Shown here: piece after piece, positions 5,634-64,000 of the stretch
How the letters are laid out: every line of letters starts with the position of its first letter
How positions within the stretch are numbered: position 1 is the stretch's first letter
Virus record (IMG/VR): IMGVR_UViG_3300028534_000019
Location: 31,091-95,090 of that record
From: a virus
Taxonomy: Duplodnaviria > Heunggongvirae > Uroviricota > Caudoviricetes
Reading direction: 5' to 3' (one strand)
DNA length: 64,000 nt
The notes under the pieces: model-generated
Seen by the model: the letters and a program-made list of their open reading frames with translations, nothing else
Databases searched by the model: none
Told to the model about the DNA's origin: nothing
Program-made: the position numbers and the translations under genes

Positions 5634-6088
5634 AAATATTCACAAGTTACTATTCTAATATTAACAAAATCAGAGAGAATTATCCTGATTTTGTTTTAAT
5701 TTCAATTAGTGGTGGTTTGGAAAATAATATTATAACTTTAATAGATGATTGGGATAAAAGGTTAGCACCTAAAAAAGATTTCTTCTTAGAGTATAAAAAT
5801 TCAAAAGAAGGTTTACCACGAGAGATTAAATATGTAAAAGAATTTAATGATAAAGTTCTATATAAAGATAAAATAAAAATAATTATAAACTCTTGGTTAG
5901 AAAAATATCCAAACAAAACTATTGTAATGCTTTGTTATGAACATCCTAAAGATTTTTGTCATAGACAAATAGTAGCTAAAGAAATTGAAACTGTTTTTAA
6001 TGTTGATGTAAAAGAATTATTTTTTGAAAATTATGAAAGAATAGATTATAAAATGTTTCCTAAAGGCTTAGATGAAGATGAATGGTAA
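5621..6088 (+). CDS. DUF488-like protein (LCYEHPKDFCHRQIV signature), overlapping the Sir2 stop
   Basis: N-terminal IKIFTSYYS and C-terminal ...IVMLCYEHPKDFCHRQIVA resemble the DUF488 ALLCaE..CHR signature. Its start overlaps the Sir2 stop by 13 nt. Confidence 0.4.
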   Translation: MEKIKIFTSYYSNINKIRENYPDFVLISISGGLENNIITLIDDWDKRLAPKKDFFLEYKNSKEGLPREIKYVKEFNDKVLYKDKIKIIINSWLEKYPNKTIVMLCYEHPKDFCHRQIVAKEIETVFNVDVKELFFENYERIDYKMFPKGLDEDEW

Positions 6089-6639: not shown

Positions 6640-6705
6640 TTTTTAAGTTTCATTTAAGTTTAATATGTTATAATTTTACATATCAAAAGACAAAAAGGAT
6701 TTAAA
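6640..6705 (+). repeat. 66-nt promoter/RBS module, copy 1 (near-identical to 36836-36901)
   Basis: ttttaagtttcatttaagt[t/c]taatatgttataattttacatatcaaaagacaaaaaggatttaaaATG occurs twice with a single mismatch. Confidence 0.85.
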
Positions 6706-13925: not shown

Positions 13926-14552
13926 ATGAGAAAGAAATTTAATGAAGATAAGAACAAAACTTATGAGAGTAAAGAACACTCTTTACATAAAAAGAAGATT
14001 GTAAAAAATCAAGACTATACAAAATTTAGGTTTTTTATAGGAACTTTTGATAATCAAACACCTAAGTTTCATTTAATATTAAATGATTTATATGATTCTA
14101 ATGAAAAAGATGAATTAGAATTAAGAATTATGTCACCAGTTGGATTGGTTATTGAATGTCAGCAAGTTGTGAATATAATGAATAACAAATTTAATGGTAG
14201 AACAACAGCATATATTGAAAGCCACGCTAGTTCAGCAGGTGCTATTGTTTTTGCTAATGCTGATAAAAGAGTTATATATGAAAATTCAAGAATAATGTTT
14301 CACAACTATTCAGGTGGTTATGGTGGTAAATTTCAAGATATTAAAGATAGATTAGATTTTGATGAAAAACATATTATTTCTTTTTTGAGTGTTGCTAAAC
14401 AATTCTTAAATAAAAAAGAATGGAAACAAATGGTAAATGGAAAAAACTTTTGGTTTGATGCTTCTGATATGTTAAAAAGAAATATAGCAACTCATATCAT
14501 AGTAGATGGTAAAGAGATGACTAAGAAAGAATATAAAAAATATAAAAAATAA
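13926..14552 (+). CDS. ClpP-like (S14) serine protease
   Basis: RIMSPVGLV...TTAYIESHASSAGAIVFANADKRV...SRIMFHN...DIKDRLDFD aligns with the ClpP Ser/His/Asp region. Confidence 0.7.
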   Translation: MRKKFNEDKNKTYESKEHSLHKKKIVKNQDYTKFRFFIGTFDNQTPKFHLILNDLYDSNEKDELELRIMSPVGLVIECQQVVNIMNNKFNGRTTAYIESHASSAGAIVFANADKRVIYENSRIMFHNYSGGYGGKFQDIKDRLDFDEKHIISFLSVAKQFLNKKEWKQMVNGKNFWFDASDMLKRNIATHIIVDGKEMTKKEYKKYKK

Positions 14553-16601: not shown

Positions 16602-17051
16602 ATGATATATTCAAATAATAAAAAAGTAAAACACGACTATGAAATAATTGAAACATTTGAGGCAGGTGTTGTTTTGAGCGGTCCGCAAGTAAAATCAATT
16701 AGAAAAGGTTCTTTAAGCCTTAAAGGTTCTTATGTTAGTCTTGATGATGGTGTTTTATCATTAAAACAATACTCACTTGCTAGACCTGATTATTTGGATG
16801 CTTTTAGTTCTTTTGATGATAAACCAATAAAATTTTTACTCAAAAAAAGAGAGATTAAAAAATTACAAAAAAAGATTCAAGAAAAAGGTTTAACATTATC
16901 TATAACAAAAGTTTATCAACCTGAAAATACTAGATTTATTAAGGCTGAGTTAGTTCTTGTGAGAGGTAAAAAACTATATGATAAAAGAGAAGATTTAAAA
17001 AAGAAAACACAAGAAATGGATATGAAAAAGGCTATAAAATATGATAGATAA
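16602..17051 (+). CDS. smpB: SmpB (SsrA-binding protein)
   Basis: KHDYEIIETFEAGVVLSGPQVKSIRKGSLSLKGSYVSLDDG...KKREIKKL...GLTLSITKVY aligns along the length of E. coli SmpB. Confidence 0.85.
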   Translation: MIYSNNKKVKHDYEIIETFEAGVVLSGPQVKSIRKGSLSLKGSYVSLDDGVLSLKQYSLARPDYLDAFSSFDDKPIKFLLKKREIKKLQKKIQEKGLTLSITKVYQPENTRFIKAELVLVRGKKLYDKREDLKKKTQEMDMKKAIKYDR

Positions 17052-18639: not shown

Positions 18640-20490
18640 ATGGCAGTTATTGGTATAGATTTAGGAACGACAAATAGTGCTGTTTCAGTTTATGAAGTAG
18701 GGGAATTTAAAATTATTCCTAATGCTGAGGGTAAAAATACAACACCTAGTATTGTAGCATTTACAGATAAAGGGGATGTATTAGTAGGGGAATCAGCAAA
18801 AAGACAAGCAGTCACAAACCCTGAAAAAACTATTGAAGCAATTAAAAGAATTATGGGTATGCAATTTAATGAACCTAGATGTAAAGAGGCTCAAGAAAAA
18901 GTACAATATAAAATTGTAGATAAAAATGGTTTGGCCGCTGTTGATGTTGATGGTAAGATTTATACACCACAAGAAATTTCAGCTAAAATCCTTACAAAAC
19001 TAAAAGATGATGCAGAAGCATTTATTGGTAAAGAAGTTACAGATGCTGTAATTACAGTTCCAGCATACTTTAATGATGCTCAGAGAAAGGCGACACAAGA
19101 GGCAGGCGTTATTGCAGGGCTTAATGTACTAAGAATTATTAATGAACCTACTTCGGCCGCTCTTGCTTATGGTTTGGACAAAAAAGGTGAGGAAAATATT
19201 CTTGTTTATGATTTTGGTGGTGGTACTTTTGATGTATCTGTATTAGAAATTGGAGATGGTACTTTTGAAGTTCTTTCAACTGATGGTAATGCTTTCTTAG
19301 GTGGTAAAGACTTTGACCAAATTTTAGTTAATTATATTGCTGAATATTTTAAAGAGAAACAGGGTGTTGATTTAAGAAATGATAAAATGGCACTTCAAAG
19401 ATTATATGATGCTTCAGAAAATGCTAAAAAAGAGTTATCAAGTGTTGTAGAAACTGAAATTAACTTACCATTTATTACTATGACAGAAGCCGGCCCGCAG
19501 CATCTTGTTTTAAAAATTTCAAGAGGTAAATTTGAGGGGTTAGTACAAAATCTTGTAGATGAAACTATTGAACATATTACAACAGCATTACAAGACGCTG
19601 GTTTAAGTGTAGATGATATTAGTGAATTGATTATGGTTGGTGGCTCAACAAGAATACCTTTAGTACAAGAGGCAGTTTCAAAGTATTTTAAAGGTAAAAC
19701 TCTTAATAAATCTGTTAATCCTGATGAAGTTGTAGCCGCTGGTGCTTCAATTCAAGGTGGTGTATTAACAGGAGATGTAAAAGATGTTCTTCTTCTTGAT
19801 GTTACACCATTATCACTTGGTATTGAAACTATGGGTGGTATTGCTACTAAAATCATCCCAAAAGGTACAACTATTCCTGTTAAAAAATCAGAAATCTTTA
19901 GTACAGCAGTTGATAATCAACCAGCAGTTAGTATTGTAGTAGTACAAGGTGAAGCAAAATTAGCAGAAGATAATAAATCTTTAGGACAATTTAATCTTGA
20001 GGGTATAACACCAGCTAAAAAAGGTGTACCACAAATTGAAGTTAATTTTGATGTTGATTCTAATGGTGTTTTGAGTGTATCAGCTATTGATAAAGGAACA
20101 GGTAAAGAACAGAAAATAACAATTACAGGTTCGACAGGTTTAAGTGAAGAAGAAATTAGAAAGATGATTGATGATGCTGAAAAACAAAATCAAGAAAAGG
20201 CTGAAAAAATTAAAGCAATTGAAGCAAAAAATGAATTGGATGCTACTCTTTCAAGAATTAAAAACTTTAATGATGAAGAAAAAAATGAAGTGCTATCAGC
20301 TAAAATTTCTGATGTTGAAGAATATGTAAAAGAAGATAGAACAGCAGAAGAAATTAGAAAAATTAGAGATGAACTTGAAGAAGTTTATTTAAAAGCATTT
20401 GAAGAGAAATCAAAAAGAAATGAAGGTGCTGAGGTAAAAGAAAGCACTGAAAATAATGATGATGTTATTGATGCTGAAATTGAAGAATAA
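18640..20490 (+). CDS. dnaK: Hsp70 chaperone DnaK (canonical-looking)
   Basis: [32 protein letters not shown] and the substrate-binding domain [14 protein letters not shown]. Ends DVIDAEIEE. Confidence 0.95.
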
Positions 20491-20501
20491 AAGAGGAAAA
20501 A

Positions 20502-21305
20502 TTGAAAAAATTATATAAAATTCTTGAAATTGAAGAAACTTCTACAACAGTAGAAATAAAAAAAGCATATAGAAAATTAGCTAAAAAATACCACCCTGAT
20601 GTTTGTAAAGAAGAGGGTGGTGAAGATAAGTTTAAAGAAATTAATAGAGCATATGAAGTTCTAAGCAATCCACAAGAAAAACAAAAGTATGATAGATTTG
20701 GTGATGAAATGTATGAAAAAATGGGGTCAGGTGGTGGAAGACCTAATCCAAATGCTGATGAGTTTGCAGAAGCAATGGCATCATTTTTCAACCAAAAGGG
20801 AAATCCCCGACAAGGTAATCCTTTTGGTATGGGTGGTAATCCTTTTATTCATACAACAATTCAAGCATATATTTCGATAGAAGATTTATTTAAAGGTACT
20901 TCTATACAATTACAAGATGGTACTAAAGTAAAAATACCACCTAGAACAATACCGGGTAGTAGGGTAAGAGTTAAAGGCAAAGGTATGTCAGATGGTAAAA
21001 ATACAGGAGATTTATTTATTATCATAACACCAAAAAATAATGATAAAGAATTTGTTGAGAATGATACTATTATAAAGATTATCAAAATTGATTTAGTTAG
21101 TATGATTTTTGGAAATGAAATAAAATATAATCATTATGGTAAAGATTTAATTGTTACTGTTCCAAAAAATACAAAGCCCGGTGACTTTGTACAAATTCCC
21201 AATCAGGGCTTAGGTACTCAGGGTTCATTAATTTTACATTTAGATTTAGAATTACCAAAAGCAGAAGATTTAGATGAAGAAAAAGTAAAAGAATTATTTA
21301 ATTAA
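20502..21305 (+). CDS. J-domain co-chaperone (class B-like, no Zn-finger), TTG start
   Basis: J domain with YRKLAKKYHPD...KFKEINRAYEVLSNPQEKQKYDRFG, followed by a G-rich linker and a C-terminal client-binding domain. aagagga RBS 5 nt before TTG. Confidence 0.85.
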   Translation: MKKLYKILEIEETSTTVEIKKAYRKLAKKYHPDVCKEEGGEDKFKEINRAYEVLSNPQEKQKYDRFGDEMYEKMGSGGGRPNPNADEFAEAMASFFNQKGNPRQGNPFGMGGNPFIHTTIQAYISIEDLFKGTSIQLQDGTKVKIPPRTIPGSRVRVKGKGMSDGKNTGDLFIIITPKNNDKEFVENDTIIKIIKIDLVSMIFGNEIKYNHYGKDLIVTVPKNTKPGDFVQIPNQGLGTQGSLILHLDLELPKAEDLDEEKVKELFN

Positions 21306-26664: not shown

Positions 26665-27576
26665 ATGGAAGAACAAATAGCGATTGATTTAGGCTATTCA
26701 ACATCAAAAGTTGCTTATGCTGATAAAATAGCAAAATTCCCAACTGCTGTTTCTTTTGCTACTGATGTAGGTACATCATATGGTGAAGGGAATATTTATG
26801 ACTTTGAGGGAGATAAGTATTATGTGGGTAGTGAAGCCGCTGATGCTGAGGCTTTTACAACTATGGATTTTAAATTTTTATATAAATTTGCTCCTCTTCT
26901 TATCTATCATATTTTAAGTAAATTTGATAAAGCAGAACTTGAAAAACCTATTGTTGTAAAAACAGGATTGGCAATTGTTGATTGGCATAAAAAAGATGAT
27001 TTTATTGAAAGAATTTCAAAAATTGAAGTGAATGGGCAAACTGTTGAAACAACACCCATTCTTATTCCTCAAGGTGCTGGATGTGCTGTTGATTGGGTTT
27101 CATCAGATAATGATGGAGAATGGCCGGACAATCTTACAGTAGTTGATATTGGTTATAATACTATTAACCTTATATCATTTTTAGAGGGTAAACCAATTAG
27201 AAAAAATATGAAAAGTTACCCAGGACACGGTGTTTCTAGTATAATTAAACCTTTTACTAGTTATCTTGAAAATACTTTTGGTACAACATTTTCAGAACAA
27301 GAAGCAATTAAATTTTTTGTTAAAGGTACTTTTAAATATAATGGTGAAGACCAACCTAAAGTATCAGAAAAAATTACAGAATTAAAATCACAATTTGTTA
27401 AAAAAATGTTTCAATCTGTTTTAGTTTCTGATAAAAAACTTCTTGCTATGTCAGATGTAGTGCTTATTGCTGGTGGTGGTGCTTATTTACTTCAAGATAT
27501 TCCATTCCCGCCAAATGTTGAGTTTGTTGATTCTCCTTATGAGTTCAGTAATACTCGTGGTTATTTAATTTCATAA
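26665..27576 (+). CDS. actin-like ATPase (ParM/Alp family)
   Basis: Phosphate-1 IAIDLGYSTSKVA, phosphate-2 VVDIGYNTINL and adenosine motif LIAGGGAYLL. Confidence 0.65.
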   Translation: MEEQIAIDLGYSTSKVAYADKIAKFPTAVSFATDVGTSYGEGNIYDFEGDKYYVGSEAADAEAFTTMDFKFLYKFAPLLIYHILSKFDKAELEKPIVVKTGLAIVDWHKKDDFIERISKIEVNGQTVETTPILIPQGAGCAVDWVSSDNDGEWPDNLTVVDIGYNTINLISFLEGKPIRKNMKSYPGHGVSSIIKPFTSYLENTFGTTFSEQEAIKFFVKGTFKYNGEDQPKVSEKITELKSQFVKKMFQSVLVSDKKLLAMSDVVLIAGGGAYLLQDIPFPPNVEFVDSPYEFSNTRGYLIS

Positions 27577-31567: not shown

Positions 31568-32455
31568 ATGGATAAAGGTTTATTTGGAATTATTGGAGCA
31601 GGTGTATTAGTAGTTATGCTATTAATTTTAGGTGCTACATCAGTTTATACAGTTGATGAGGGTAAAGTTGGTATTGTAAAGACTTGGGGTAAAGCAGTAA
31701 AGCAAGTTAATCCCGGACTTCACTTCAAAATGCCTATTGCTGATGAGGTTGTAGAGATTGAGGTAAGAACAAGAAAAAATGTTGAAACTATGAGTATTGC
31801 TACAAGTGAGCAAATGGCGGCAAAAGCAACTGTTTCTATGAACTGGACTGTTAATAAAGCAAGTGTTTTAGAACTCTATAAGAAATATGGCTCACTTGAC
31901 CAATTTGAAAGTAGAATTTTAGACCCAAAACTTAGAGATGCCACAAAAGAGGGTATTGCTAAATTTACAGCAGAACAAAATATTAAGAACAGAGGTGTAA
32001 GCACACTCAAAGTTAAGGAATTATTTATTAACCAAATTAAAGGTTATCCTATTACTGTTAATGGTTTTCAAATTGAAGATATTCAATTAAGTAAAAAATA
32101 TCTTGCTTCAATTGATGCTAAACAAACAGCTAAAAATGAAAGAGATGCTGAAAAATTTAAACTTGAAAAACAAGCCCTTGAAGCACAAAGAGCAGTAAAT
32201 ACAGCAAATGCTGAAAGAGATGCCGCTAAAGCAAGAGCAGATGGTGTGGCTTATAAAATTGAAGCAGAAGCAAAAGCAAATGCTAAGAAAATTGCCCTTA
32301 TTGCTGGAGCAGAAGCAAAAGCAATTAAACAAAAAGCACAAGCACTTAAAAATAACCCTGCTATTATAGACTATATGAGAGCAGAAAAATGGAGTGGGAA
32401 TTATCCTACTACTATGATGGGTAGCAACCCAAACATTCTTATGAAATTAAAATAA
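31568..32455 (+). CDS. SPFH/band-7 (HflK/C-prohibitin-like) membrane protein
   Basis: N-terminal transmembrane segment, then VYTVDEGKVGIVKTWGKAVKQVNPGLHFKMP..., with an Ala/Lys-rich coiled-coil C-terminus. Confidence 0.8.
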   Translation: MDKGLFGIIGAGVLVVMLLILGATSVYTVDEGKVGIVKTWGKAVKQVNPGLHFKMPIADEVVEIEVRTRKNVETMSIATSEQMAAKATVSMNWTVNKASVLELYKKYGSLDQFESRILDPKLRDATKEGIAKFTAEQNIKNRGVSTLKVKELFINQIKGYPITVNGFQIEDIQLSKKYLASIDAKQTAKNERDAEKFKLEKQALEAQRAVNTANAERDAAKARADGVAYKIEAEAKANAKKIALIAGAEAKAIKQKAQALKNNPAIIDYMRAEKWSGNYPTTMMGSNPNILMKLK

Positions 32456-33464: not shown

Positions 33465-34577
33465 ATGAAAATTACAGAGATTAAACCTATTTTACAGTTT
33501 TCTAAAGATGCTGATGATGCTGTAATCATTGAGGGTAAACACGGTATTGGTAAATCAGAAATAGTTAAACAATATTGTTCGGAAAATGGTTATTTTTATA
33601 CTGTTTTATTTTTAAGTCATCAAGAAGTTGGTGATTTGATTGGTATGCCTTTTGAAAAAAATGGTATTCAATATTGGTCTAAACCATCTTGGTTAGTAAG
33701 AATGGAAGAAGCATCAGCAAGAGGGGAACATAATGTTTTACTCTTAGATGAGTTAAACCGAGCCCAAACTGATGTATTACAAAGTGCTTTACAACTTGTT
33801 TTAGAAAGACAAATTCACGAGCATTTCTTACCTACTACTGATGGTGTAAGAAGTCAAGTAATTGCTTGTATTAACCCTGATGATGATTTATATCAAGTAA
33901 TTACACTTGACCCAGCACTAAAAGATAGATTTTTACATTTAAAAACAAGTGAAGATTTACAAGGATGGGTTAAATGGGGTGGTGAAAAAGGAGTACCTGA
34001 TGTTGTTATTCATTACTTGCTTGAAAATGAAAATGATTTTCATAGTACAAATGAAGATGGTGAGGGTGCTACACCAAGAAGTTGGTATAAATTAAGTCAA
34101 TTCTTGAAAATATTTGAAGATAAAGAAGTTGAAGAATTTCAACTTTGGGAGATTATTAAAGGTAAAGTAGGTTCAAGTATCGGTAGCAAATTCCTTAACT
34201 TTTATAATACTCATAGTACATTTATTGATGTTACAAAAATTAAAAAGTTTTTAAATAAATATAAAAGAGATATTTCTGATTTACCTGAAATTGGTGCTGA
34301 ATTAGCTAGTTATATTAAAGGTCTTGAACAAGTAACTAAAGTAGAACAAGTTAATAAACTATATCACGACAGTATTGAAAAAATTAAAGATACTAAAGTT
34401 ACTATGGATGATGAAGATATTTTCACTATTTTTGCTATGCTTCACGCTTTTGAAATAGAAGTAACAACATCAGTTATGAAGCAATGGAAAAATGAAAGTG
34501 TGAGTGATTTTATGGATTTTGTTAAAAAAGATAATAAAGAACTCATTACATTAATAACAAGAAGATTAAAAACATAA
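33465..34577 (+). CDS. MoxR-family AAA+ ATPase
   Basis: Walker A EGKHGIGKSE. MoxR signature LLLDELNRAQTDVLQSALQLVLERQI (cf. DEINRAxxKTQSALLEAMQE). Confidence 0.8.
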   Translation: MKITEIKPILQFSKDADDAVIIEGKHGIGKSEIVKQYCSENGYFYTVLFLSHQEVGDLIGMPFEKNGIQYWSKPSWLVRMEEASARGEHNVLLLDELNRAQTDVLQSALQLVLERQIHEHFLPTTDGVRSQVIACINPDDDLYQVITLDPALKDRFLHLKTSEDLQGWVKWGGEKGVPDVVIHYLLENENDFHSTNEDGEGATPRSWYKLSQFLKIFEDKEVEEFQLWEIIKGKVGSSIGSKFLNFYNTHSTFIDVTKIKKFLNKYKRDISDLPEIGAELASYIKGLEQVTKVEQVNKLYHDSIEKIKDTKVTMDDEDIFTIFAMLHAFEIEVTTSVMKQWKNESVSDFMDFVKKDNKELITLITRRLKT

Positions 34578-34592
34578 AAGAGGTATTAAAAA

Positions 34593-34802
34593 ATGTATGC
34601 TTTAATAGGTTATAATGATGAGTATTATTACATTCAAATTTTTTCAGAAACTGATGTTGTGTATGGTTATATAATATATAACTTTAGTGGGGATAAAAGT
34701 TTAGTAGTTGATAATTTCCCAATTAGTTCAGTATTAAAAAGGTTTGAAACATTATATACTATTGAAGAAATACAAAATTTATACCCTGAATTAAAGTTCT
34801 AA
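34593..34802 (+). CDS. small protein with C-terminal LYPELKF tag
   Basis: 69 aa. Ends ...EEIQNLYPELKF-stop. Confidence 0.45.
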   Translation: MYALIGYNDEYYYIQIFSETDVVYGYIIYNFSGDKSLVVDNFPISSVLKRFETLYTIEEIQNLYPELKF

Positions 34803-34814
34803 GAAAGGTTTTAT

Positions 34815-35183
34815 ATGGTAAAATTTCATAAAGATTATGATTTTAAAGGTGCTGATTTAGAAATCTTAAAAAAATTTCATAAAGATAATAATATTTCAAG
34901 AGTTGTATTAGATATAGAACTTAAAAAAGATAAAATTATGTTTTATTGGATTGAATATTCTAATTTTAGATATTTGTATGTTGATGATTTAAAAAGAAGT
35001 AGAGATATTAATATTAGCATATTCAAAATTAATGATATTATTTCTATAACAAATAGAGATTTTAACACACAAATATATTTTAAAGATGATATGTTTTATA
35101 TACCAAATAATAAAAATACTGATGTATTAATTGATGAATTTATCGAAGGTGATACATCAGTGAAAATTTTAAGAAAGATTTAA
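34815..35183 (+). CDS. hypothetical protein
   Basis: 122-aa ORF. Confidence 0.45.
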   Translation: MVKFHKDYDFKGADLEILKKFHKDNNISRVVLDIELKKDKIMFYWIEYSNFRYLYVDDLKRSRDINISIFKINDIISITNRDFNTQIYFKDDMFYIPNNKNTDVLIDEFIEGDTSVKILRKI

Positions 35184-35219
35184 TATTTTTTAGTGTATAA
35201 TGTCATATAAAGGATTAAA

Positions 35220-36473
35220 ATGGCTAAGAGTAATTTAAGAAGTGAAATTATTGAGGAAACTGTTATAAATGCCTTTTCAAATAAGAGAGATGGTTTTGTA
35301 AATGAGTATGCTTTTTATTTTCATATGTTTGCTATGTGTAATATAATTGAAACAGAAGATGTAGAGTTAGCAGGTGTTAATTTTATTAAAAAATGGAATT
35401 TATATATAAATCCTAAAGAGTTTCAAAAATATTCACTTAATCAAAGACTTGGTATAATTAAGCACGAAATGCTTCACATAATTTTTAACCATTTAGTAAG
35501 AATGGAAAACAAAGAAAAAGAAGAATGGAATTTAGCTACTGATTGTGCTATTAATCAAATGATTAGAAGTGCTGATTTACCTAAAGAAAGAGTAGATACA
35601 AAAAGTCTAAGTGAATATTTGGGTGTTGATGTACCTACTAATCAAAGTGCTGATTATTATTATGATTTAATTATGAAAAATAAAAAACAACAAAATAAAT
35701 GTGGTGGCAGTTCATCAGGTGGTTGTCCACAACAAGGTGATGGTAGTGGTTCTGATGAAAGTGATGGTTTAGGTACATTAGATGACCATAATAAATGGGA
35801 AGAGTCGGAAAGTATGGATGGTATAGAAGAACTTATTGAATCTTCTGTTAAAGATATGGTTTCAAAAGCCCAAGACAAAAACAGAGGTCTAACACCACAA
35901 GAACTTAATGAAATTATTGAGATTATTTTTGGTAAATCTGTTGTTAATTGGAAAAGTGTTTTAAGAAATATTGTTTCTAATAGAAGAGTTAATAAAAGAT
36001 ATACAATTCAAAAAAGGAATAGAAGATTCCCAAAAAGAATAGAAATTAGAGGTACAACAAAAGAGAAAAAATTTGATATTGTTGTTATACTTGATATTTC
36101 AGGTAGTATGAATGATAGTGAAATTCAAGATGGTTTAAATGAAATTAAAGCAATTGCTAAATTAACAAAATCTAGTATTAAGATAATTCAAGTCGATACA
36201 ACTGTTAAAGAAGTTCAAGAGTTTACAGCAAAGACAAAAACATTTAATAGACTTGGTTGTGGTGGTACAATGATGTATCCAGCACTTCAATATATAAAAG
36301 ATAACAAAATAGATATGGATTGTGGCATTTTGATTTCAGATATGATGATTGAAAGTTTAGATACTTGGGAACAAAAAGGTTTAGCACCAAAATGTAAATT
36401 TATCTTTTTGAATACTAGTAACCACTCACTAAAAACAACAACAAGAAAAAACTATATGTTTTTTGATTTATAA
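35220..36473 (+). CDS. VWA-domain protein with N-terminal HExxH putative metallopeptidase domain (DUF2201-like, MoxR partner)
   Basis: IKHEMLHIIFNH (HExxH), a Gly/Ser linker, then a VWA MIDAS motif VVILDISGSMND. Confidence 0.75.
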   Translation: MAKSNLRSEIIEETVINAFSNKRDGFVNEYAFYFHMFAMCNIIETEDVELAGVNFIKKWNLYINPKEFQKYSLNQRLGIIKHEMLHIIFNHLVRMENKEKEEWNLATDCAINQMIRSADLPKERVDTKSLSEYLGVDVPTNQSADYYYDLIMKNKKQQNKCGGSSSGGCPQQGDGSGSDESDGLGTLDDHNKWEESESMDGIEELIESSVKDMVSKAQDKNRGLTPQELNEIIEIIFGKSVVNWKSVLRNIVSNRRVNKRYTIQKRNRRFPKRIEIRGTTKEKKFDIVVILDISGSMNDSEIQDGLNEIKAIAKLTKSSIKIIQVDTTVKEVQEFTAKTKTFNRLGCGGTMMYPALQYIKDNKIDMDCGILISDMMIESLDTWEQKGLAPKCKFIFLNTSNHSLKTTTRKNYMFFDL

Positions 36474-36833: not shown

Positions 36834-36835
36834 AT

Positions 36836-36901
36836 TTTTTAAGTTTCATTTAAGTCTAATATGTTATAATTTTACATATCAAAAGACAAAAAGGATTTAA
36901 A
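36836..36901 (+). repeat. 66-nt promoter/RBS module, copy 2 (see 6640-6705)
   Basis: Near-identical to copy 1, with one mismatch. Confidence 0.85.
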
Positions 36902-38174: not shown

Positions 38175-39122
38175 ATGTTTGTTGTTAGAAAATTGCTTGA
38201 AGAAGCAAATGATAATTATTTTAAAAGACTTAATGATAATGAAATATCTAAAAATGATATAGAAATTTATGAAACTATTTTCCCTATTAGAAAATTAGAT
38301 GCTAGAAAATTAGATGATTTTGTTTCTAAAACTAACATTGATAATCTATTAATTAAAATTTCAAAACTAGATAATTCTTATATTAAAACTTTACTTAATG
38401 ATGTAATACTGATATTATCTAATGAAAAACCAAACTCAAGTCTAGCAGAAAATCTAAATCTTGTAAAAATGAGAATTGAAATAGATTTAGATGATGATGT
38501 TAAAAATTTTATATATGCTGAGGATATTATAGAAGTTTTAAAAACATTACCTAAAAGAACATTTATTGTAGGTGGTTTTGTTAGAGATTCAATAGCTAAT
38601 AGAAGTGCTAATGATATGGATTTTTGTACTGAAAATAGCTATGAAGATGTAAAAAAAGTTTTTGAAAAAAATAAAAACTTCTCTATTAAAGAAACAGGTA
38701 AACATTTTTCTGTTTTGATTGTTACAGATAAAAATAATCTTGAATCTTTTGAAATTGCTCAATTAAGAAAAGACAAAGATAATGGTGGTGCTGAAATAGG
38801 AACTATTATAGATGATGCTGAAAGAAGAGATTTTATGAATAGTGCTATTTACTTTGATATTAATTCTAAAGTATTAATTGACCCTCACGGTCAATCAATA
38901 GATGATAGTGTCAGAAATGTAATTAGATTTATTGGCAAACCTGAGGATAGAATAAAAGAAGACCCTCTAAGGGTTCTAAGATTTTATAGATTTATGGGTA
39001 GAGGTTGGGTAGCTGATTCAAAATCATTAAAAGCAGTGAGAACTAATTTTAGTTTAATGATGAATGAAACATCTCATAATAGAGTTATGAGTGAAATTGA
39101 AAAAATGGTAATGGGAGCATAA
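38175..39122 (+). CDS. class-II tRNA nucleotidyltransferase (CCA-adding / poly(A) polymerase) head+neck, truncated
   Basis: Head motif GGFVRDSIANRSANDMDFCT, motif B ERRDFMNSAIYFD, then LIDPHGQSIDDSVRNVIRFIG and EDPLRVLRFYRF. At 315 aa it lacks the body and tail. Confidence 0.8.
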   Translation: MFVVRKLLEEANDNYFKRLNDNEISKNDIEIYETIFPIRKLDARKLDDFVSKTNIDNLLIKISKLDNSYIKTLLNDVILILSNEKPNSSLAENLNLVKMRIEIDLDDDVKNFIYAEDIIEVLKTLPKRTFIVGGFVRDSIANRSANDMDFCTENSYEDVKKVFEKNKNFSIKETGKHFSVLIVTDKNNLESFEIAQLRKDKDNGGAEIGTIIDDAERRDFMNSAIYFDINSKVLIDPHGQSIDDSVRNVIRFIGKPEDRIKEDPLRVLRFYRFMGRGWVADSKSLKAVRTNFSLMMNETSHNRVMSEIEKMVMGA

Positions 39123-39353: not shown

Positions 39354-39393
39354 ATATCTTTGATATTTTATAAAAAATTAAGTAAAGTTAGAG

Positions 39394-39399
39394 TATAAT
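39394..39399 (+). promoter_or_regulatory. -10 TATAAT of the conserved promoter module upstream of tmRNA (gagTATAATtACACATACAAAAAGGA)
   Basis: Same module as in front of protein genes. About 50 nt of leader lie before the mature 5' GGGG. Confidence 0.45.
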
Positions 39400-39451
39400 T
39401 ACACATACAAAAAGGATATGTTGTTTTAATTATAAAAACTTTACTTACTAT

Positions 39452-39772
39452 GGGGATGATATGGTTTCGACTGGAAGTCATAGCACTAATGATACCTTTT
39501 AAAATTAAACGCAAACAACACAGATTACACTGGTAACACAGTGCTTTCAGCATAGTCTAAGGACTTGACTGAGGGGTTTTTAAGTTTTACCTTGCAACAG
39601 AAAAACTTATCCTTTTCGTTTTATATGGTTGTATGTCCTTAACATACATTAAAGTTTGTAATCTTTTCAAAATTACACATAAAAGTTAATAGTTCTTGGT
39701 TCTTTTAAAAACTAGAACATATCATTAGTGTGGATTTTTAGGACTCGGGTTCAATTCCCGACATCTCCACCA
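39452..39772 (+). ncRNA. ssrA: tmRNA (SsrA), 321 nt including encoded CCA
   Basis: 5' GGGGAUGAUAUGGUUUCGAC pairs with 3' CAUCUCC-A-CCA, including a G3:U70 wobble. T-arm UCGGG-UUCAAUU-CCCGA. The tag-leader UUUUAAAAUUAAAC-GCA-AAC-AAC matches the recalled C. jejuni ssrA leader. Confidence 0.9.
39511..39555 (+). other. tmRNA tag-peptide reading frame: ANNTDYTGNTVLSA-stop(TAG)
   Basis: The resume codon GCA follows AAAUUAAAC as in the host-type ssrA recalled from memory. The tag is 14 aa and shares ANNTDY with the Helicobacter tag as recalled, but its C-terminus VLSA differs from the host AKAA. Confidence 0.7.
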
Positions 39773-39843: not shown

Positions 39844-41706
39844 ATGAGTCAAGATATTGTTTTAGGTATTGATTTAGGTACAACAATGAGTGTAATATCA
39901 TATTACGACCCCCACGAAAAAGCAGTCAAACTTATTAAAGATAAAGAACAAAAAGTTTTATTTCCATCAGTTGTTGCTTTGGTTGATGGTAAATGGGAAG
40001 TTGGTGAAAGGGCTTTAGAACAATATGAAGTAACTCCTGAATTAACAATAAGAAATATTAAAAGACTTATGGGAACACCATTTTATTCTGATGGATGTAA
40101 ACAAGCAAAAAATATAATCAGTTCAAAAGTTGTTAATATGGATGGTATGGCAGGTGTTGAGTTGATGGGTAAACAATATTCACCTGAAGAAATTTCCTCA
40201 ATCATTCTTAGTTTTTTAAAAGATACAGCAGAAAAACATTTTGAAAGATTGAAATTAGATTATAATATTAGTGGTGTTGTTATAACAGTTCCAGCATACT
40301 TCAATCATAACCAAAGAACAGCCACAAGGCGTGCTGGAGAGGTAGCTGGACTAAATGTATTAAGGATAGTTAATGAGCCGACAGCGGCTTCTCTTGCTTA
40401 TGGTTTACAAAATAAAGAAGATGGTAAAATAGTAGCAGTTGATTTAGGTGGTGGTACATTTGATGTATCAGTAATTGATATTTCTGATAGTACATATAAA
40501 GTTCTAAGTACAAATGGTAACTCTTATTTTGGTGGAGAAGACCTAAATAATAAAATTTTTAAAAATTTAGTAGATTTTATAAAGGCTAATATTGGAATAG
40601 ATATTACACTAAGTGATAGGTCACAAGCAATATTAAATGAAGAAATAGAGAGAGTAAAACAAGAACTTTCTTTTAATAAATCTTCTTACCTAAATGCTAA
40701 TGATATTTTTGAAAAAGACCCTTATAATTTTTCAGCTAAGATTACAAGAGAAGAATTAGAAGAAATTCTTGATTTTGGAGAAGTTAAAAAACACATAATT
40801 AAGGCTATTGAAGATGCTGATGTAAAATATGAAGAAATACAAGATGTTGTTTTAGTTGGTGGTTCAACAAGAATACCTATGTTGAAAAAAATAGTTTCTA
40901 AATTATTTGATGGTAGAGAACTTTATGATAAATTAAACCCTGATGAGGTAGTTTCAATAGGTGCTTCTATTCAGGGTGCTATTATTTCAGGTTATATTGA
41001 TGATATTTTGTTAATTGATGTTGCTTCTTTATCTTTGGGTATAAAATTAGATGACGAAACATTTTTACCAATTATTAAAAAAGGAACAGTATTACCAGCA
41101 GAATTTAATGATAATGTTACAACTTCTGAGAATGACCAAAAATTCTTAGTTTTTAATATAGCCCAAGGTGAAGCAGAAAAATTTAGTGATAATATTTTCT
41201 TAGGTAACTTTATTTTTGAGGGTTTTGATACCGGACCGGCAGGTTATCCAAACATAACTGTAACAATAAAACAAAATTTAGATGGTATTATAGAAGTATT
41301 AGTTAAAGATGAAAATTCTAAAGCAAAAGAAACTTATCTCATTGAGGGTGAATATAATATTTCACAAAGTAGAATACAAGAATTAACAGCTAAAAATGAA
41401 GAAAGTAATGAAGAAAACAAAGAAGAAAATGAAAGAAAAAGATGTTTATCGAGAATAAAATATAAATTGTTTGAAATTGAAAGATATGCTGAAAAATTTG
41501 ATTCTGAGAGAATGAGAGAATTATATAAAAATGGTTTGGATGCCATAAAAGAAGATAAACTAAAAGCAAGTGATTTATCAGTTATAGAAAATTATCTATC
41601 AAGTAGATATTTTAGTGTTATGGCTTCACACCAAAAAGAAATAGAAAACAAATTAGAAGAAAATGCTAGAAATTATGCTAAAAAACTTAGAAAAAAGGAA
41701 AAATAA
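39844..41706 (+). CDS. second, divergent Hsp70/DnaK paralogue
   Basis: [36 protein letters not shown] and substrate-binding DVASLSLGIKLDD. 620 aa. Confidence 0.9.
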   Translation: MSQDIVLGIDLGTTMSVISYYDPHEKAVKLIKDKEQKVLFPSVVALVDGKWEVGERALEQYEVTPELTIRNIKRLMGTPFYSDGCKQAKNIISSKVVNMDGMAGVELMGKQYSPEEISSIILSFLKDTAEKHFERLKLDYNISGVVITVPAYFNHNQRTATRRAGEVAGLNVLRIVNEPTAASLAYGLQNKEDGKIVAVDLGGGTFDVSVIDISDSTYKVLSTNGNSYFGGEDLNNKIFKNLVDFIKANIGIDITLSDRSQAILNEEIERVKQELSFNKSSYLNANDIFEKDPYNFSAKITREELEEILDFGEVKKHIIKAIEDADVKYEEIQDVVLVGGSTRIPMLKKIVSKLFDGRELYDKLNPDEVVSIGASIQGAIISGYIDDILLIDVASLSLGIKLDDETFLPIIKKGTVLPAEFNDNVTTSENDQKFLVFNIAQGEAEKFSDNIFLGNFIFEGFDTGPAGYPNITVTIKQNLDGIIEVLVKDENSKAKETYLIEGEYNISQSRIQELTAKNEESNEENKEENERKRCLSRIKYKLFEIERYAEKFDSERMRELYKNGLDAIKEDKLKASDLSVIENYLSSRYFSVMASHQKEIENKLEENARNYAKKLRKKEK

Positions 41707-62463: not shown

Positions 62464-64000
62464 ATGACTAATGATATATATCCACTTTTGGATGAAAGTC
62501 TAATAAATGAAAATATAGTAAATTATAATTTATTTAAAGATATATTAATGTCTTTTTTTAGAAATAATGCTAATATTGAAAATGTTATTAATAATCCTGT
62601 TTTACTTTATGACTTTGATTATCTAATTGAACAATATTATGATACTTTAGCTGGTGAAGATACAAATAAAATTAGAAAAGAACTATTTAAAATTAATATG
62701 GAAGAAATAAATGATGTTCTTGATAGTACATCACTTAATGATGATGTATTAGAACATTTTTATGATTTTTATAGAAGTATGGGTAAAGGTATTGATGATG
62801 TTAAATTAATTAATAACTTATCAAATGATATTAATTCTCAATATTTTAATACAGCTAGAATTTATAAAATGAAAAAAGGTACATATTTAGGATATGATTT
62901 TATATTTAGTCTTTTAGGAAAAACAGGTCTTGAACCATTATTTAAAGGTGCTGAATTAGAAATTAAAGAACTTGATGAACCTTTTAAATACCAAATTAAA
63001 TCACAAGTACCAAGAGAAATATTAAAAGATACATTGTTAAAAATAACACATCCTTGTGGTTTTGAATACAGTTTTGTTTCATATGATTATATTGGTTTTG
63101 ATGAATTTTATTCTTTTTATTATGAAACTTTTTATAACTCAATAATTTTTAAACAAAATGATGGTACAATAATATTCTCATTAGAGAAAGAGTCTGATTA
63201 TTCGACAAATTTAATTTCTAGTTATTATGATGGAATTAGAAATTTTAATGTTACTGATGATGAAGTTTATGGTACTTTGGTTGAAGTTTTATTCATAAAT
63301 AATTTTTATTTTAAAGAATTAATGGATAGAACAACTGAATTATTTTTAAAATTACAATATAATGAAATTTATACAGTACAAGAAGATTCTCCTATTGAAG
63401 TTAAAGATATATATGATGTTGGAACTAATTTAGAAATATTAATAACAAATATTGAGTTAATTAATATTGAAATTGGTGAATTATATTATGAAGTAGGAAA
63501 TAAAGAAAATTCTATTAATAATGGAAAATATCTTTTTAACTTTAAACTAAAAGAAGCAAAAACATTATATATAGTTGGACAAAATTCATTTAAAGTTAGA
63601 TATACAATAGCTGGTGATAGCCCTAATCAAGGGTGGTATTATGCTGATATACCTATTATAGACCCTGTTGTATCACAAGATAATAAAAAAGTTTATGAAG
63701 ATATTAATTTTACGAAAGAAGATATTCTAAAAGATTTTAATTATAATGGTGTTTATCTTAAAAAATTTGATACTACTAATTATTTTTTAATCAATAAAAC
63801 AGAAAACAATAAACTTGATTTGATTAGAGATGAATTATATTGGGATATGTTTATACATATTGGACTTTATACATCACAAACATTTTTATTAGAAGATATA
63901 TTTGAGCCAAAACCTAATGAAATTTGTAGAAAAGTACAAATAGGTATGGAAACTACTTATTATAAAGAAAAACTTAAAATAGGTGGTTTTAAAATTGGTT
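62464..64000 (+). CDS. baseplate/tail-fiber region protein, 5' partial (runs off window)
   Basis: ATG at 62464 after a gaggtt RBS. The frame is open to the window end and follows the J-like gene (I-like position). Confidence 0.5.
   Translation, partial: MTNDIYPLLDESLINENIVNYNLFKDILMSFFRNNANIENVINNPVLLYDFDYLIEQYYDTLAGEDTNKIRKELFKINMEEINDVLDSTSLNDDVLEHFYDFYRSMGKGIDDVKLINNLSNDINSQYFNTARIYKMKKGTYLGYDFIFSLLGKTGLEPLFKGAELEIKELDEPFKYQIKSQVPREILKDTLLKITHPCGFEYSFVSYDYIGFDEFYSFYYETFYNSIIFKQNDGTIIFSLEKESDYSTNLISSYYDGIRNFNVTDDEVYGTLVEVLFINNFYFKELMDRTTELFLKLQYNEIYTVQEDSPIEVKDIYDVGTNLEILITNIELINIEIGELYYEVGNKENSINNGKYLFNFKLKEAKTLYIVGQNSFKVRYTIAGDSPNQGWYYADIPIIDPVVSQDNKKVYEDINFTKEDILKDFNYNGVYLKKFDTTNYFLINKTENNKLDLIRDELYWDMFIHIGLYTSQTFLLEDIFEPKPNEICRKVQIGMETTYYKEKLKIGGFKIG

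What the first reader, a model, noticed from the sequence alone, without database searches (positions are those of the whole stretch)
39452..39772. Phage-encoded tmRNA whose tag peptide keeps the host-like start (ANNTDY...) but lacks the recalled host ...AKAA ending
A complete ssrA is embedded between protein genes. It has the acceptor stem with G3:U70, the T-arm UCGGG-UUCAAUU-CCCGA and an encoded CCA. The 14 nt preceding the resume codon (AAAAUUAAAC-GCA-AAC-AAC) match what I recall of C. jejuni tmRNA, and the tag begins ANNTDY like the Helicobacter tag as I remember it. However the frame ends ...GNTVLSA-TAG rather than the host-type ...PAYAKAA. The C-terminal Ala-Ala-COOH is what ClpXP/ClpAP read. 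A phage tmRNA would therefore still rescue stalled ribosomes, for example those produced by host mRNA or tRNA-cleaving defences or by phage nucleases. It would do so without flagging the products for host proteolysis, or it would redirect them to a different protease. It is driven by the same promoter module as phage protein genes.
Basis: partly seen in the sequence, partly recalled or inferred. Interest (0 to 1): 0.85.

Follow-up and report, generated by a model that had tools for sequence, protein, structure and literature searches.

The report
Phage tmRNA–SmpB pair, minimal tmRNA
A T4-like phage, probably infecting Campylobacterota, carries its own ribosome-rescue system: a stripped-down tmRNA plus its partner protein SmpB, and the peptide tag lacks the usual ending, so rescue may have been kept while the degradation signal weakened or changed.

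Summary
Window 39452-39772 (+) is a full-length one-piece tmRNA (Rfam RF00023, 90.8 bits against a cut-off of 47). ARAGORN reads the tag as ANNTDYTGNTVLSA*. The G3:U pair, T arm and encoded ACCA are all present. The window is a T4-like myovirus. A phage promoter module (TTAAG-N11-TATAAT; 11 copies against 0.47 expected) lies just upstream of the tmRNA.

The 19 nt around the resume codon are identical to those of 66 bacterial tmRNAs, including C. jejuni. All 66 bacterial tags end in AA (50) or VA (16). None ends in SA.

- The phage also encodes a full-length SmpB (16602-17051).
- The tmRNA has no pseudoknot 1. Its resume codon is at nt 60, against nt 85-95 in the bacterial tmRNAs.

An unrelated phage contig (L131) carries a second PK1-less tmRNA whose tag ends in the normal AA.

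Phage tmRNAs and phage SmpB are already known. "Rescue without proteolysis" is an inference only. VLSA is still a non-polar tail ending in Ala, and host-clade tags already tolerate -VA. The only other copies found are identical, so selection on the tag cannot be tested.

Verdict: a real and probably functional phage trans-translation pair, and a new variant of a known kind. Interest is moderate.

The parts
39378..39399 (+). Phage promoter module TTAAGT-N10-TATAAT upstream of the tmRNA
   Evidence: The pattern TTAAG-N11-TATAAT occurs 11 times in the window against 0.47 expected, and 0 of 100 shuffles reach 11. Ten copies are on the + strand, mostly in intergenic gaps ahead of + strand genes.
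39394..39412 (+). TATAAT plus the conserved downstream block ACATA-N2-AAA, which is the probable start-site region
   Evidence: TATAAT-N3-ACATA-N2-AAA occurs 10 times against 0.88 expected. The same block precedes protein genes at 6669, 15833, 32568, 33211, 36865 and 42373. The transcription start is inferred, not shown.
39406..39451 (+). Inferred 5' leader of about 45 nt. It carries an SD-like AAGGA (39412-39416) and a 3-codon mini-ORF ATG TTG TTT TAA (39418-39429), and would need RNase P processing.
   Evidence: Read directly from the sequence. The leader looks like the 5' UTR plus RBS of the phage's protein genes. Processing is inferred.
39452..39772 (+). One-piece tmRNA (ssrA), 321 nt, lacking PK1
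   Evidence: ARAGORN. Rfam RF00023 at 90.8 bits against 47. Fold with z = -3.96. Identical copies occur in two other assemblies.
39471..39494 (+). Helix 2, 5' strand (nt 20-28 and 32-43). It pairs with 39720-39741 (nt 269-290).
   Evidence: 9 + 12 base pairs in the minimum-energy and centroid folds.
39495..39510 (+). 16-nt single-stranded linker CCUUUUAAAAUUAAAC between helix 2 and the resume codon. It sits where PK1 would be and carries the U(-5)A(-4) frame determinant.
   Evidence: The cmscan alignment deletes the PK1 positions of the model; 26 hidden positions plus CAUGCCGAGG are replaced by 5 nt. A Campylobacterales tmRNA keeps them. The resume codon is at nt 60 against nt 85-95 in 66 bacterial tmRNAs.
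39511..39555 (+). Tag reading frame: GCA resume codon (39511-39513), 14 codons ANNTDYTGNTVLSA, and stop UAG (39553-39555)
   Evidence: ARAGORN. The GCA aligns to the consensus resume codon. The flanking 19-mer is identical to bacterial tmRNAs.
39544..39575 (+). Helix-5-like stem-loop (nt 93-124) enclosing the last three codons and the stop codon. It is preceded by a 5-bp hairpin at 39528-39543 inside the tag frame.
   Evidence: Minimum-energy and centroid folds.
39745..39772 (+). T arm (39745-39761), acceptor 3' strand (39762-39768) and encoded ACCA (39769-39772)
16602..17051 (+). Phage-encoded SmpB, 149 aa, with the GKKLYDKRED motif and a full C-terminal tail
   Evidence: Found with an HMM I built (E 2e-37). 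Pfam PF01668 at 132 bits, profile positions 2-142 of 143. It aligns end to end with solved SmpB chains, including the tail (7ljp_A, E 2e-30).
38175..39122 (+). Phage tRNA nucleotidyltransferase (CCA-adding family, head domain only), two genes upstream. A possible accessory; the link to the tmRNA is not shown.
   Evidence: Pfam PolyA_pol 7.5e-18. phrog_2244 tRNA nucleotidyltransferase 1.7e-36. Homologues in other phages have no tmRNA nearby.

Best explanation
This is a working, phage-encoded trans-translation system. It consists of a minimal one-piece tmRNA (321 nt, no PK1) and the phage's own SmpB.

Proposed mechanism, with the basis for each step:
- The tmRNA is transcribed from the phage's own promoter type. 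The motif is shown; transcription is inferred.
- It is trimmed from a leader of about 45 nt (inferred).
- Host AlaRS charges it with alanine through the G3:U pair. The identity element is shown; charging is inferred.
- Phage SmpB, host SmpB or both deliver it to ribosomes stalled on broken mRNAs, which are abundant in a T4-like infection that degrades host RNA (inferred).
- Translation resumes at GCA 39511. The frame is set by the conserved U(-5)A(-4) upstream block. It ends at UAG inside helix 5 and appends ANNTDYTGNTVLSA.

The half of the tag nearest the resume codon (ANNTDY) is conserved. The degron half has diverged from the clade consensus ...A(K/A)(A/V)A.

The most economical reading is that the phage selects for ribosome recycling and not for proteolysis. 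The C-terminal signal would then be relaxed or weakened, so tagged products are probably cleared more slowly, or by proteases other than those that clear host-tagged products.
For: - A complete tRNA-like domain, helix 2, resume context and helix 5.
- The 19-nt resume block is identical to that of 66 bacterial tmRNAs. It includes the -5/-4 UA, which sets the frame in E. coli (PMC2481249).
- A phage promoter module lies upstream.
- A full-length SmpB with its C-terminal tail lies in the same genome.
- The same tmRNA sequence appears in three independent assemblies.
- PK1 can be replaced in E. coli without loss of activity (PMC2481249). A second PK1-less phage tmRNA (L131, Rfam 57.8 bits) exists.
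- Tag endings: 0 of 66 bacterial tags end in SA. Most genuine phage tmRNAs sampled from IMG/VR keep AA.
- For lambda-immP22 growth, tmRNA rescue is needed but the tag function is not critical (PMC2481249). This fits relaxed selection on the degron in a phage.
Against: - Nothing here shows expression, charging or tagging.
- No diverged relatives of this tmRNA were found. The only other copies are identical, so conservation of the tag or of compensatory base pairs cannot be tested.
- PK1 is described as a conserved domain that contacts 23S H38 and the 30S head during translocation (PMC8363625), so its absence could impair function.
- VLSA is still non-polar and Ala-terminal. Host-clade tags already tolerate Val at the penultimate position, so the degron may be fully active.
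- The host and its tag are not identified. The genome scan saw only tmRNAs that share the exact 19-mer.
Confidence: 0.5

Rival explanations
1. It is an ordinary degradative tmRNA. The system works as above, but ...VLSA-COOH is still a competent degron for ClpXP, Lon, FtsH or Tsp in the real host. The difference from AKAA, AKVA or AVA would be neutral drift within what those proteases accept, and tagged proteins are destroyed as usual.
For: - The tag ends in Ala with Leu at -3 and Val at -4, so the tail is non-polar.
- 16 of 66 related bacterial tags end in -VA, so the penultimate position is not fixed in this clade.
- In E. coli, variants of the last three residues (LVA, AAV, ASV) all still destabilise GFP, at different rates (PMC9097571).
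- The window holds a Clp-protease-family gene at 13926-14552.
Against: - No sampled bacterial tag has Ser at the penultimate position (0 of 66).
- In E. coli the Ser-containing ASV variant is among the weaker ones.
- The whole second half of the tag, not just one residue, differs from the clade consensus.
Confidence: 0.27
2. It is a decaying relic. On this reading the tmRNA is a captured bacterial ssrA that is losing function, and the PK1 deletion and scrambled tag end are degradation, not adaptation.
For: - PK1 is missing and the RNA is about 40 nt shorter than Campylobacterota tmRNAs.
- The Rfam score (90.8) is lower than that of a bacterial relative (133.4).
- There are no relatives to show purifying selection.
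- Related phages with homologous NTase or DnaK modules have no tmRNA in the regions seen.
Against: - Every element known to be essential is intact: G3:U, T loop, ACCA, a 21-bp helix 2, the exact resume block, an open 14-codon frame and a stop codon inside helix 5.
- It has a phage promoter.
- The genome maintains a full-length SmpB.
- Best identity to any sampled bacterial tmRNA is only about 70-73%. That means long residence, in which an unused gene in a tightly packed phage genome would normally be lost.
- An independent phage lineage has the same PK1-less layout.
Confidence: 0.1
3. It is a decoy or an anti-defence RNA. It would not act as a rescue factor. Instead it would titrate host SmpB, AlaRS, RNase R or a host nuclease or immune sensor, or replace a host tmRNA that a defence system or the phage itself destroys.
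For: - Mycobacteriophage DS6A carries little more than a tRNA-like domain, and such molecules inhibit tmRNA, perhaps by titrating SmpB (PMC4131195).
- tmRNA fragments take part in an anti-CRISPR complex (PMC11662646).
- The gene sits among RNA-repair-type genes: a tRNA nucleotidyltransferase and a metallophosphoesterase.
Against: - A decoy would not need an intact resume block, an open tag frame, helix 5 or a co-encoded full-length SmpB with a functional-looking tail.
- No evidence here shows any nuclease acting on host tmRNA.
Confidence: 0.08

Closest known systems
Campylobacterota one-piece tmRNAs (Campylobacter, Helicobacter, vent Campylobacterales MAGs; Rfam RF00023)
   Same: They share the tRNA-like domain, helix 2, an identical 19-nt resume block (AAAAUUAAAC GCA AAY AAY) and a tag starting ANNT(N/D)Y. 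Of the sampled tmRNAs they have the best overall identity to the phage RNA, about 70-73%.
   Different: The bacterial RNAs are 358-394 nt, have PK1, and place the resume codon at nt 85-95. Their tags end ...APAYAK(A/V)A or ...RPALAVA. The phage RNA is 321 nt, has no PK1, resumes at nt 60, and its tag ends ...TGNTVLSA.
Known phage-encoded tmRNAs (mycobacteriophage Bxz1 group, Bacillus phage G, pelagimyophage/Melnitz two-piece tmRNAs; about 2.3% of phage genomes)
   Same: These are tmRNA genes carried by lytic myoviruses, often placed behind phage promoters, and are thought to keep the hijacked translation machinery running (PMC4131195; PMC9004378).
   Different: There is no sequence relationship; blastn against 50,697 phage records finds nothing. 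In my IMG/VR sample, most genuine phage tmRNAs resume at nt 86-97 and end in AA. This one lacks PK1, ends in SA, and comes with SmpB.
tmRNA plus SmpB in huge phages (Al-Shayeb et al. 2020; e.g. the 735-kb LR756501) and Prevotella megaphages
   Same: The phage encodes both partners of trans-translation (PMC7162821). tblastn finds SmpB in LR756501 and in 15 Prevotella phage records.
   Different: Those genomes exceed 200 kb and also carry large tRNA sets. This is a T4-like phage whose TerL is closest to phages of about 175-190 kb, and its 64-kb window holds no tRNA. SmpB identity to them is at most 42%. Only 67 of 50,697 phage records match SmpB at all, and many of those are host genes at prophage edges.
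PK1-less phage tmRNA on metagenome contig JAEIGA010000262.1 (locus L131) and its relative Ga0247609_10000070 (L130)
   Same: L131 has the same layout: helix 2 is followed directly by a short linker and the same resume block. The resume codon is at nt 65, the RNA is 296 nt, and Rfam scores it 57.8 bits.
   Different: It is a different phage with no DNA similarity to the window. The tmRNA is embedded in a 17-tRNA array that includes a CUA suppressor tRNA. Its tag ANNYSYAMAA keeps the canonical AA end, and the CCA is not encoded.
Oenococcus oeni tmRNA (reported to lack helices 3 and 4, i.e. PK1)
   Same: It is a natural tmRNA without PK1 (PMC1168896).
   Different: It is bacterial and unrelated. 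I did not examine its sequence.

Membership tests
tmRNA (one-piece, Rfam RF00023) | Covariance-model score above the curated threshold over the full model | tested here: met
   90.8 bits against a gathering score of 47, model positions 1-374, E 5e-34
tmRNA (one-piece, Rfam RF00023) | tRNA-like domain: 7-bp acceptor stem with the G3:U AlaRS identity pair, T arm with a GUUCRANUC-type loop, discriminator A plus CCA | tested here: met
   G3:U315, T arm at nt 294-310 (UCGGG UUCAAUU CCCGA), ACCA at nt 318-321
tmRNA (one-piece, Rfam RF00023) | Long helix 2 joining the tRNA-like domain to the rest of the RNA | tested here: met
   9 + 12 bp, nt 20-43 paired with nt 269-290
tmRNA (one-piece, Rfam RF00023) | Pseudoknot 1 between helix 2 and the resume codon | tested here: not met
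   Only 16 single-stranded nt separate helix 2 from the resume codon. The cmscan alignment deletes the PK1 positions, which a Campylobacterales tmRNA keeps. The resume codon is at nt 60 against nt 85-95 in 66 bacterial tmRNAs. PK1 is replaceable in E. coli (PMC2481249), so its absence does not exclude function.
tmRNA (one-piece, Rfam RF00023) | Resume codon preceded by the conserved frame-setting sequence (U-5, A-4) | tested here: met
   UUAAAC|GCA. The 19-mer is identical to that of 66 bacterial tmRNAs. The role of U85 and A86 is described in PMC2481249.
tmRNA (one-piece, Rfam RF00023) | Short tag frame ending at a stop codon within helix 5 | tested here: met
   14 codons, with UAG at nt 102-104 inside the stem at nt 93-124
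tmRNA (one-piece, Rfam RF00023) | Tag with the usual non-polar C-terminal degron ending in Ala-Ala (or -VA in Campylobacterota) | tested here: not met
   The tag ends in -LSA. Of 66 bacterial tags with the same resume block, 50 end in AA, 16 in VA and none in SA. Whether -VLSA is a degron cannot be tested here.
tmRNA (one-piece, Rfam RF00023) | Pseudoknots 2-4 downstream of helix 5 | tested here: inconclusive
   cmscan aligns this region with low posterior probability. The nested fold shows three hairpins. Pseudoknots cannot be predicted with the folding tool and there are no relatives for covariation.
tmRNA (one-piece, Rfam RF00023) | Alanylation, SmpB binding and tagging activity | not testable with these tools
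   Needs experiments
SmpB (Pfam PF01668) | Full-length match to the family profile, including the C-terminal tail needed for decoding-centre mimicry | tested here: met
   132 bits against a cut-off of 27, profile positions 2-142 of 143. It aligns over residues 3-149 to solved chain 7ljp_A, including RGKKxYDKRE and the basic tail.
Phage-encoded (not host or prophage-edge) tmRNA | The gene lies inside a phage genome, flanked by phage genes, and not at an integration site | tested here: met
   T4-like structural and replication genes lie on both sides across the 64 kb. A phage promoter module lies upstream. No integrase was seen in the proteins scanned.

The most novel reading that the evidence does not exclude
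The phage runs a private, partly orthogonal trans-translation pathway. A PK1-less tmRNA, matched to a phage SmpB, would rescue ribosomes but mark the released polypeptides with a tag that host ClpXP does not read. Rescue would then be uncoupled from host proteolysis. Alternatively, the products would be routed to phage-encoded proteostasis factors: DnaK/DnaJ at 18640-21305, a second Hsp70 directly downstream of the tmRNA, and a Clp-family protease at 13926-14552. PK1 loss, now seen in two unrelated phage lineages, would be a recurrent phage adaptation rather than decay.
Probability: 0.15. Interest if true: 0.8.

Novelty: new variant of a known kind. Interest (0 to 1): 0.5.

Why it matters
Trans-translation is nearly universal in bacteria, and its two outputs, ribosome recycling and proteolytic tagging, are hard to separate in vivo. 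This phage keeps every element needed for recycling, including its own SmpB. It has dropped PK1 and replaced the degron half of the tag. That makes it a natural experiment on which parts of tmRNA matter when only rescue is selected.

It also gives a compact natural tmRNA (321 nt; 296 nt in L131) for structural work on how the mRNA-like domain is loaded without PK1.

It extends phage-borne SmpB–tmRNA pairs from huge phages to a T4-like phage, probably of vent-type Campylobacterota.

If the tag turns out to be an ordinary degron, the finding reduces to one more phage tmRNA with an unusually small structure.

Tried and rejected
- **Search for diverged relatives of the tmRNA.**
  - blastn 'distant' against 50,697 phage records found no match.
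  - IMG/VR scans with the 5' 20-mer found only an unrelated phage tmRNA, L001. Scans with the tag-start 22-mer and with a PK1-less architecture pattern found nothing.
  - The Hsp70 neighbour found nothing in IMG/VR.
  - The metagenome scan with the architecture pattern found only L130 and L131, which are a different phage.
  - Exact-protein look-ups returned two more copies of the same phage at 99.5-100% identity. All 32 differences lie in the 3' end of the Hsp70 gene, so they carry no comparative signal for the tmRNA.
- **Is the NTase-tmRNA linkage conserved?** Contigs carrying NTase homologues (P0003, P0005, P0006, P0016) hold no tmRNA. The ORF after the NTase in L257 has no homologue in the window. 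I did not claim a functional linkage.
- **SmpB and DnaK relatives.** Contigs with SmpB relatives (P0123 is phage-like; P0124 and P0126 are bacterial) and with DnaK relatives (P0244, P0247) hold no tmRNA within 10 kb.
- **Host identification.** The closest named DnaK homologues are Sulfurimonas, Lebetimonas and a hydrothermal vent metagenome at 67-69%. The closest TerL matches include Campylobacter phages at 39%. This points to Campylobacterota but names no host.
- **Sigma-70 consensus scan around the gene.** It gave no more hits than shuffles (9 against 7.4) and was rejected in favour of the phage-specific module.
- **ARAGORN tags of other phage tmRNAs taken at face value.** The L001 tag was a miscall; the frame at the normal position ends ...VAKAA.
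- **The antisense 61-aa ORF at 39368-39553.** It overlaps the tmRNA and I treated it as spurious.
Full report
**1. The observation**

ARAGORN finds exactly one tmRNA in the window, at 39452-39772 (+). Its tag is ANNTDYTGNTVLSA* and the coding part runs from nt 60 to 104. The Rfam tmRNA model RF00023 matches the same coordinates from model position 1 to 374. The score is 90.8 bits against a gathering score of 47, and the GCA aligns to the consensus resume codon.

The minimum-energy fold gives these elements (z = -3.96 against shuffles):
- a 7-bp acceptor stem with G3:U315;
- a 9 + 12 bp helix 2;
- a T arm UCGGG/UUCAAUU/CCCGA;
- an encoded ACCA.

**2. The setting**

The window has 26% G+C and is tightly packed with + strand genes. 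It encodes:
- TerL, a tape-measure-like protein, baseplate hub and wedge proteins;
- gp32, a T4 neck protein, gp15, a gp19-like tube protein and two T4 baseplate proteins.

It is a T4-like myovirus. TerL is 41% identical to Vibrio phage phiKT1024 and 39% identical to Campylobacter phages of the CP220 group.

The same phage occurs at 99.5-100% identity in an ENA assembly (ERZ27262685) and a Logan assembly (SRR8439170). No nucleotide relative exists among 50,697 phage records, and none was found in IMG/VR.

The phage DnaK (18640-20490) is closest among named proteins to DnaK of Sulfurimonas, Lebetimonas and a 'hydrothermal vent metagenome', at 67-69%. It is 71-74% identical to DnaK on phage-like contigs, one of which is labelled hydrothermal vent metagenome. 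The host is therefore probably a member of the Campylobacterota, but it is not identified.

**3. The reading frame and the tag**

The 19-mer AAAATTAAAC-GCA-AAY-AAY was scanned across one genome per bacterial species. It lies in the tmRNAs of C. jejuni and of many other Campylobacter, Helicobacter and Campylobacterales genomes. It also lies in many Clostridia tmRNAs. The block is not specific to that clade, however.

The block carries U at -5 and A at -4, the positions that set the frame in E. coli (PMC2481249). The frame is therefore as secure as sequence alone can make it.

Sampled bacterial tags:
- Campylobacter: ANNVKFAPAYAK(A/V)A
- Helicobacter: ANNTNYAPAYAKVA and similar
- Three Campylobacterales or Campylobacteraceae MAGs: ANNTNYRPALAVA

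Of the 66 bacterial tags, 50 end in AA and 16 in VA. None ends in SA. The phage tag shares ANNT(D/N)Y and then diverges completely (alignment A1). The best overall identity of the RNA to any sampled bacterial tmRNA is only 70-73%, and the closest are Campylobacterota. It is not a recent capture.

**4.

*(a) No pseudoknot 1.* All 66 bacterial tmRNAs place the resume codon at nt 85-95. Here it is at nt 60. Helix 2 ends at nt 43, and only 16 unpaired nucleotides (CCUUUUAAAAUUAAAC) lead to the GCA.

The cmscan alignment deletes the PK1 part of the model in the phage RNA. A Campylobacterales tmRNA keeps it.

PK1 is regarded as a conserved domain that contacts the ribosome during translocation (PMC8363625). 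It can nevertheless be replaced by unrelated sequence in E. coli without loss of activity (PMC2481249). A natural tmRNA lacking helices 3 and 4 has been reported in Oenococcus oeni (PMC1168896).

A metagenome scan for the 'short distance' architecture found a second case, L131:
- It comes from an unrelated phage and sits inside a 17-tRNA array that includes a CUA suppressor tRNA.
- The tmRNA is 296 nt, resumes at nt 65 and scores 57.8 bits in Rfam.
- Its tag ANNYSYAMAA has a normal ending.

In this small sample, PK1 loss is therefore seen in two phage lineages, and it is independent of the tag change.

*(b) The phage encodes SmpB.* An HMM built from SmpB genes next to the bacterial ssrA loci hit one window ORF at E 2e-37. 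Pfam confirms a full-length SmpB at 16602-17051 (132 bits, profile positions 2-142 of 143). It aligns to solved SmpB structures through the C-terminal tail.

Its closest relatives are only 49% identical. One of them is on a phage-like contig. SmpB matches only 67 of 50,697 phage records. Among those are the 735-kb huge phage and Prevotella megaphages, and many of the remainder are host genes at prophage edges.

**5. Expression signals**

The motif TTAAG-N11-TATAAT occurs 11 times against 0.47 expected. Most copies lie in intergenic gaps ahead of + strand genes, and one is at 39378-39399.

The downstream block TATAAT-N3-ACATA-N2-AAA occurs 10 times against 0.88 expected, with one copy at 39394-39412.

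The stretch between this promoter and G1 of the tmRNA looks like the 5' UTR of a protein gene. It has an SD-like AAGGA and a three-codon ATG-TTG-TTT-TAA (39418-39429). It would have to be removed by RNase P. The generic sigma-70 scan is uninformative here.

**6. Neighbours**

- Upstream of the tmRNA lie a metallophosphoesterase, a tRNA nucleotidyltransferase of the phage type (phrog_2244) and a 76-aa ORF with no family match.
- Downstream is a divergent Hsp70.
- Elsewhere in the window are DnaK, DnaJ, a MoxR ATPase with a VWA/DUF2201 partner, a Clp-family protease and an SPFH protein.

The NTase-tmRNA adjacency is not conserved in the phages that carry NTase homologues. I do not claim a functional operon.

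**7. Mechanism**

Shown:
- All sequence elements needed for charging, SmpB binding, frame setting and termination are intact.
- A partner SmpB is present.
- A phage promoter motif is present.

Inferred:
- The RNA is made, processed and alanylated by host AlaRS.
- It rescues ribosomes stalled on damaged mRNAs during infection and adds the 14-residue tag.

The codon-proximal half of the tag is conserved and the degron half is replaced. That pattern is what one expects if recycling is selected and proteolysis is not. For a lambda-P22 hybrid phage, tmRNA rescue is needed but the tag function is not critical (PMC2481249).

Whether ...VLSA escapes the host proteases cannot be decided from sequence:
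- The tail is still non-polar and ends in Ala.
- Related bacteria use -VA.
- In E. coli the last three residues tune the degradation rate rather than switching it off (PMC9097571).

I give about 0.5 to 'functional rescue system with a relaxed or weakened degron'. The rivals get 0.27 (ordinary degron), 0.1 (decaying relic) and 0.08 (decoy or anti-defence role).

**8. Comparison and novelty**

Phage tmRNAs are well known:
- mycobacteriophages and Bacillus phage G (PMC4131195);
- about 2.3% of phage genomes (PMC9004378);
- huge phages that carry both tmRNA and SmpB (PMC7162821).

My sample of IMG/VR hits contained about 14 genuine phage one-piece tmRNAs.
- Nearly all resume at nt 86-97 and end in AA.
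- One, on the 210-kb contig L180, ends ...AYAG.
- The odd ARAGORN tag of L001 is a miscall for a tag ending ...VAKAA.

A non-AA phage tag is therefore uncommon but not unique.

What is new here is the combination, in a T4-like phage:
- a PK1-less minimal tmRNA;
- a tag whose degron half is replaced;
- a co-encoded SmpB.

I rate it a new variant of a known kind, with moderate interest (0.5).

**9. Limits**

- No diverged relatives were found, so there is no covariation or selection test.
- The host is unknown.
- The genome scan saw only tmRNAs with the exact 19-mer.
- Pseudoknots 2-4 could not be assessed.
- Nothing about expression or activity is shown.

Noticed in passing
window 16602-17051 (+): A full-length phage-encoded SmpB (149 aa; Pfam 132 bits; tail GKKLYDKRED...KYDR). 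It lies 22 kb from the tmRNA and was not part of the finding as given.
   Followed up: yes
window 18640-21305 (+) and 39844-41706 (+): The phage carries a bacterial-type DnaK (Hsp70, 1.7e-230) followed by a DnaJ with a TTG start (J domain plus DnaJ_C). A second, divergent Hsp70 lies directly downstream of the tmRNA. Related contigs (L254-L256) carry HSP20-DnaK-GrpE-DnaJ modules, and one is labelled hydrothermal vent metagenome.
   Followed up: partly
window, 11 sites (1140, 13876, 15817, 21313, 26613, 31230, 33195, 39378, 48822, 57811 on +; 63740-63761 on -): A phage-specific promoter-like module, TTAAG-N11-TATAAT, usually followed by ACATA-N2-AAA and an AAAGGA ribosome-binding site. The upstream box lies only 10-11 nt from the -10 element, so it is not a sigma-70 -35 box. 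The layout recalls activator-dependent middle promoters of T4-like phages. That comparison is from memory and was not tested.
   Followed up: partly
window 6640-6705 and 36834-36901: Two nearly identical 66-68-nt intergenic segments (promoter plus leader; about 95% identity over 82 nt by blastn), 30 kb apart.
   Followed up: no
window 41451-41701: Window and the ENA contig L002 differ at 32 positions in 6.6 kb. Of these, 31 cluster in the last 250 nt of the Hsp70-2 gene, which looks like a recombination or mosaic boundary between otherwise identical strains.
   Followed up: partly
window 39418-39429: A three-codon mini-ORF (ATG TTG TTT TAA) directly after an SD-like AAGGA, in the inferred tmRNA leader. 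It may be a remnant of a protein-gene 5' end, or a leader peptide.
   Followed up: no
window 33465-36473 (+): A MoxR-type AAA+ ATPase (AAA_5) lies two small ORFs upstream of a DUF2201 metallopeptidase-like/VWA protein. PHROGs labels the latter family 'HNH endonuclease' (phrog_1314), which looks like a misleading family name.
   Followed up: no
window 4884-6088 (+): A Sir2-family protein overlaps a DUF488-N3a protein. Both are NAD- or defence-associated domains, here inside a lytic phage.
   Followed up: no
window 13926-14552, 26665-27576, 31568-32455: A Clp-protease/NfeD-like protein sits next to the terminase gene. The window also holds an actin-like (ALP/MreB-like) protein and an SPFH/Band 7 protein.
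   Followed up: no
L131 5871-6169 (-) (JAEIGA010000262.1) and L130 (Ga0247609_10000070): An unrelated phage contig with a 17-tRNA array that includes a CUA (amber suppressor) tRNA, and a 296-nt PK1-less tmRNA. The tag is ANNYSYAMAA and no CCA is encoded.
   Followed up: partly
L001 5388-5765 (-) (IMGVR_UViG_3300028840_003497) and L180 8616-9020 (-): The L001 tmRNA shares the first 20 nt with the window's tmRNA but is otherwise different. ARAGORN's tag for it is a miscall; the normal-position frame ends ...PVAKAA. L001 also has a UUA-anticodon tRNA. The L180 tmRNA, from a 210-kb contig, has a tag ending ...NFAYAG, another non-AA phage tag.
   Followed up: partly
window 1-64000: No tRNA gene lies anywhere in the 64-kb window despite the presence of tmRNA, SmpB and a tRNA nucleotidyltransferase. 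Most phages with tmRNAs in my sample carry tRNA arrays next to them.
   Followed up: no
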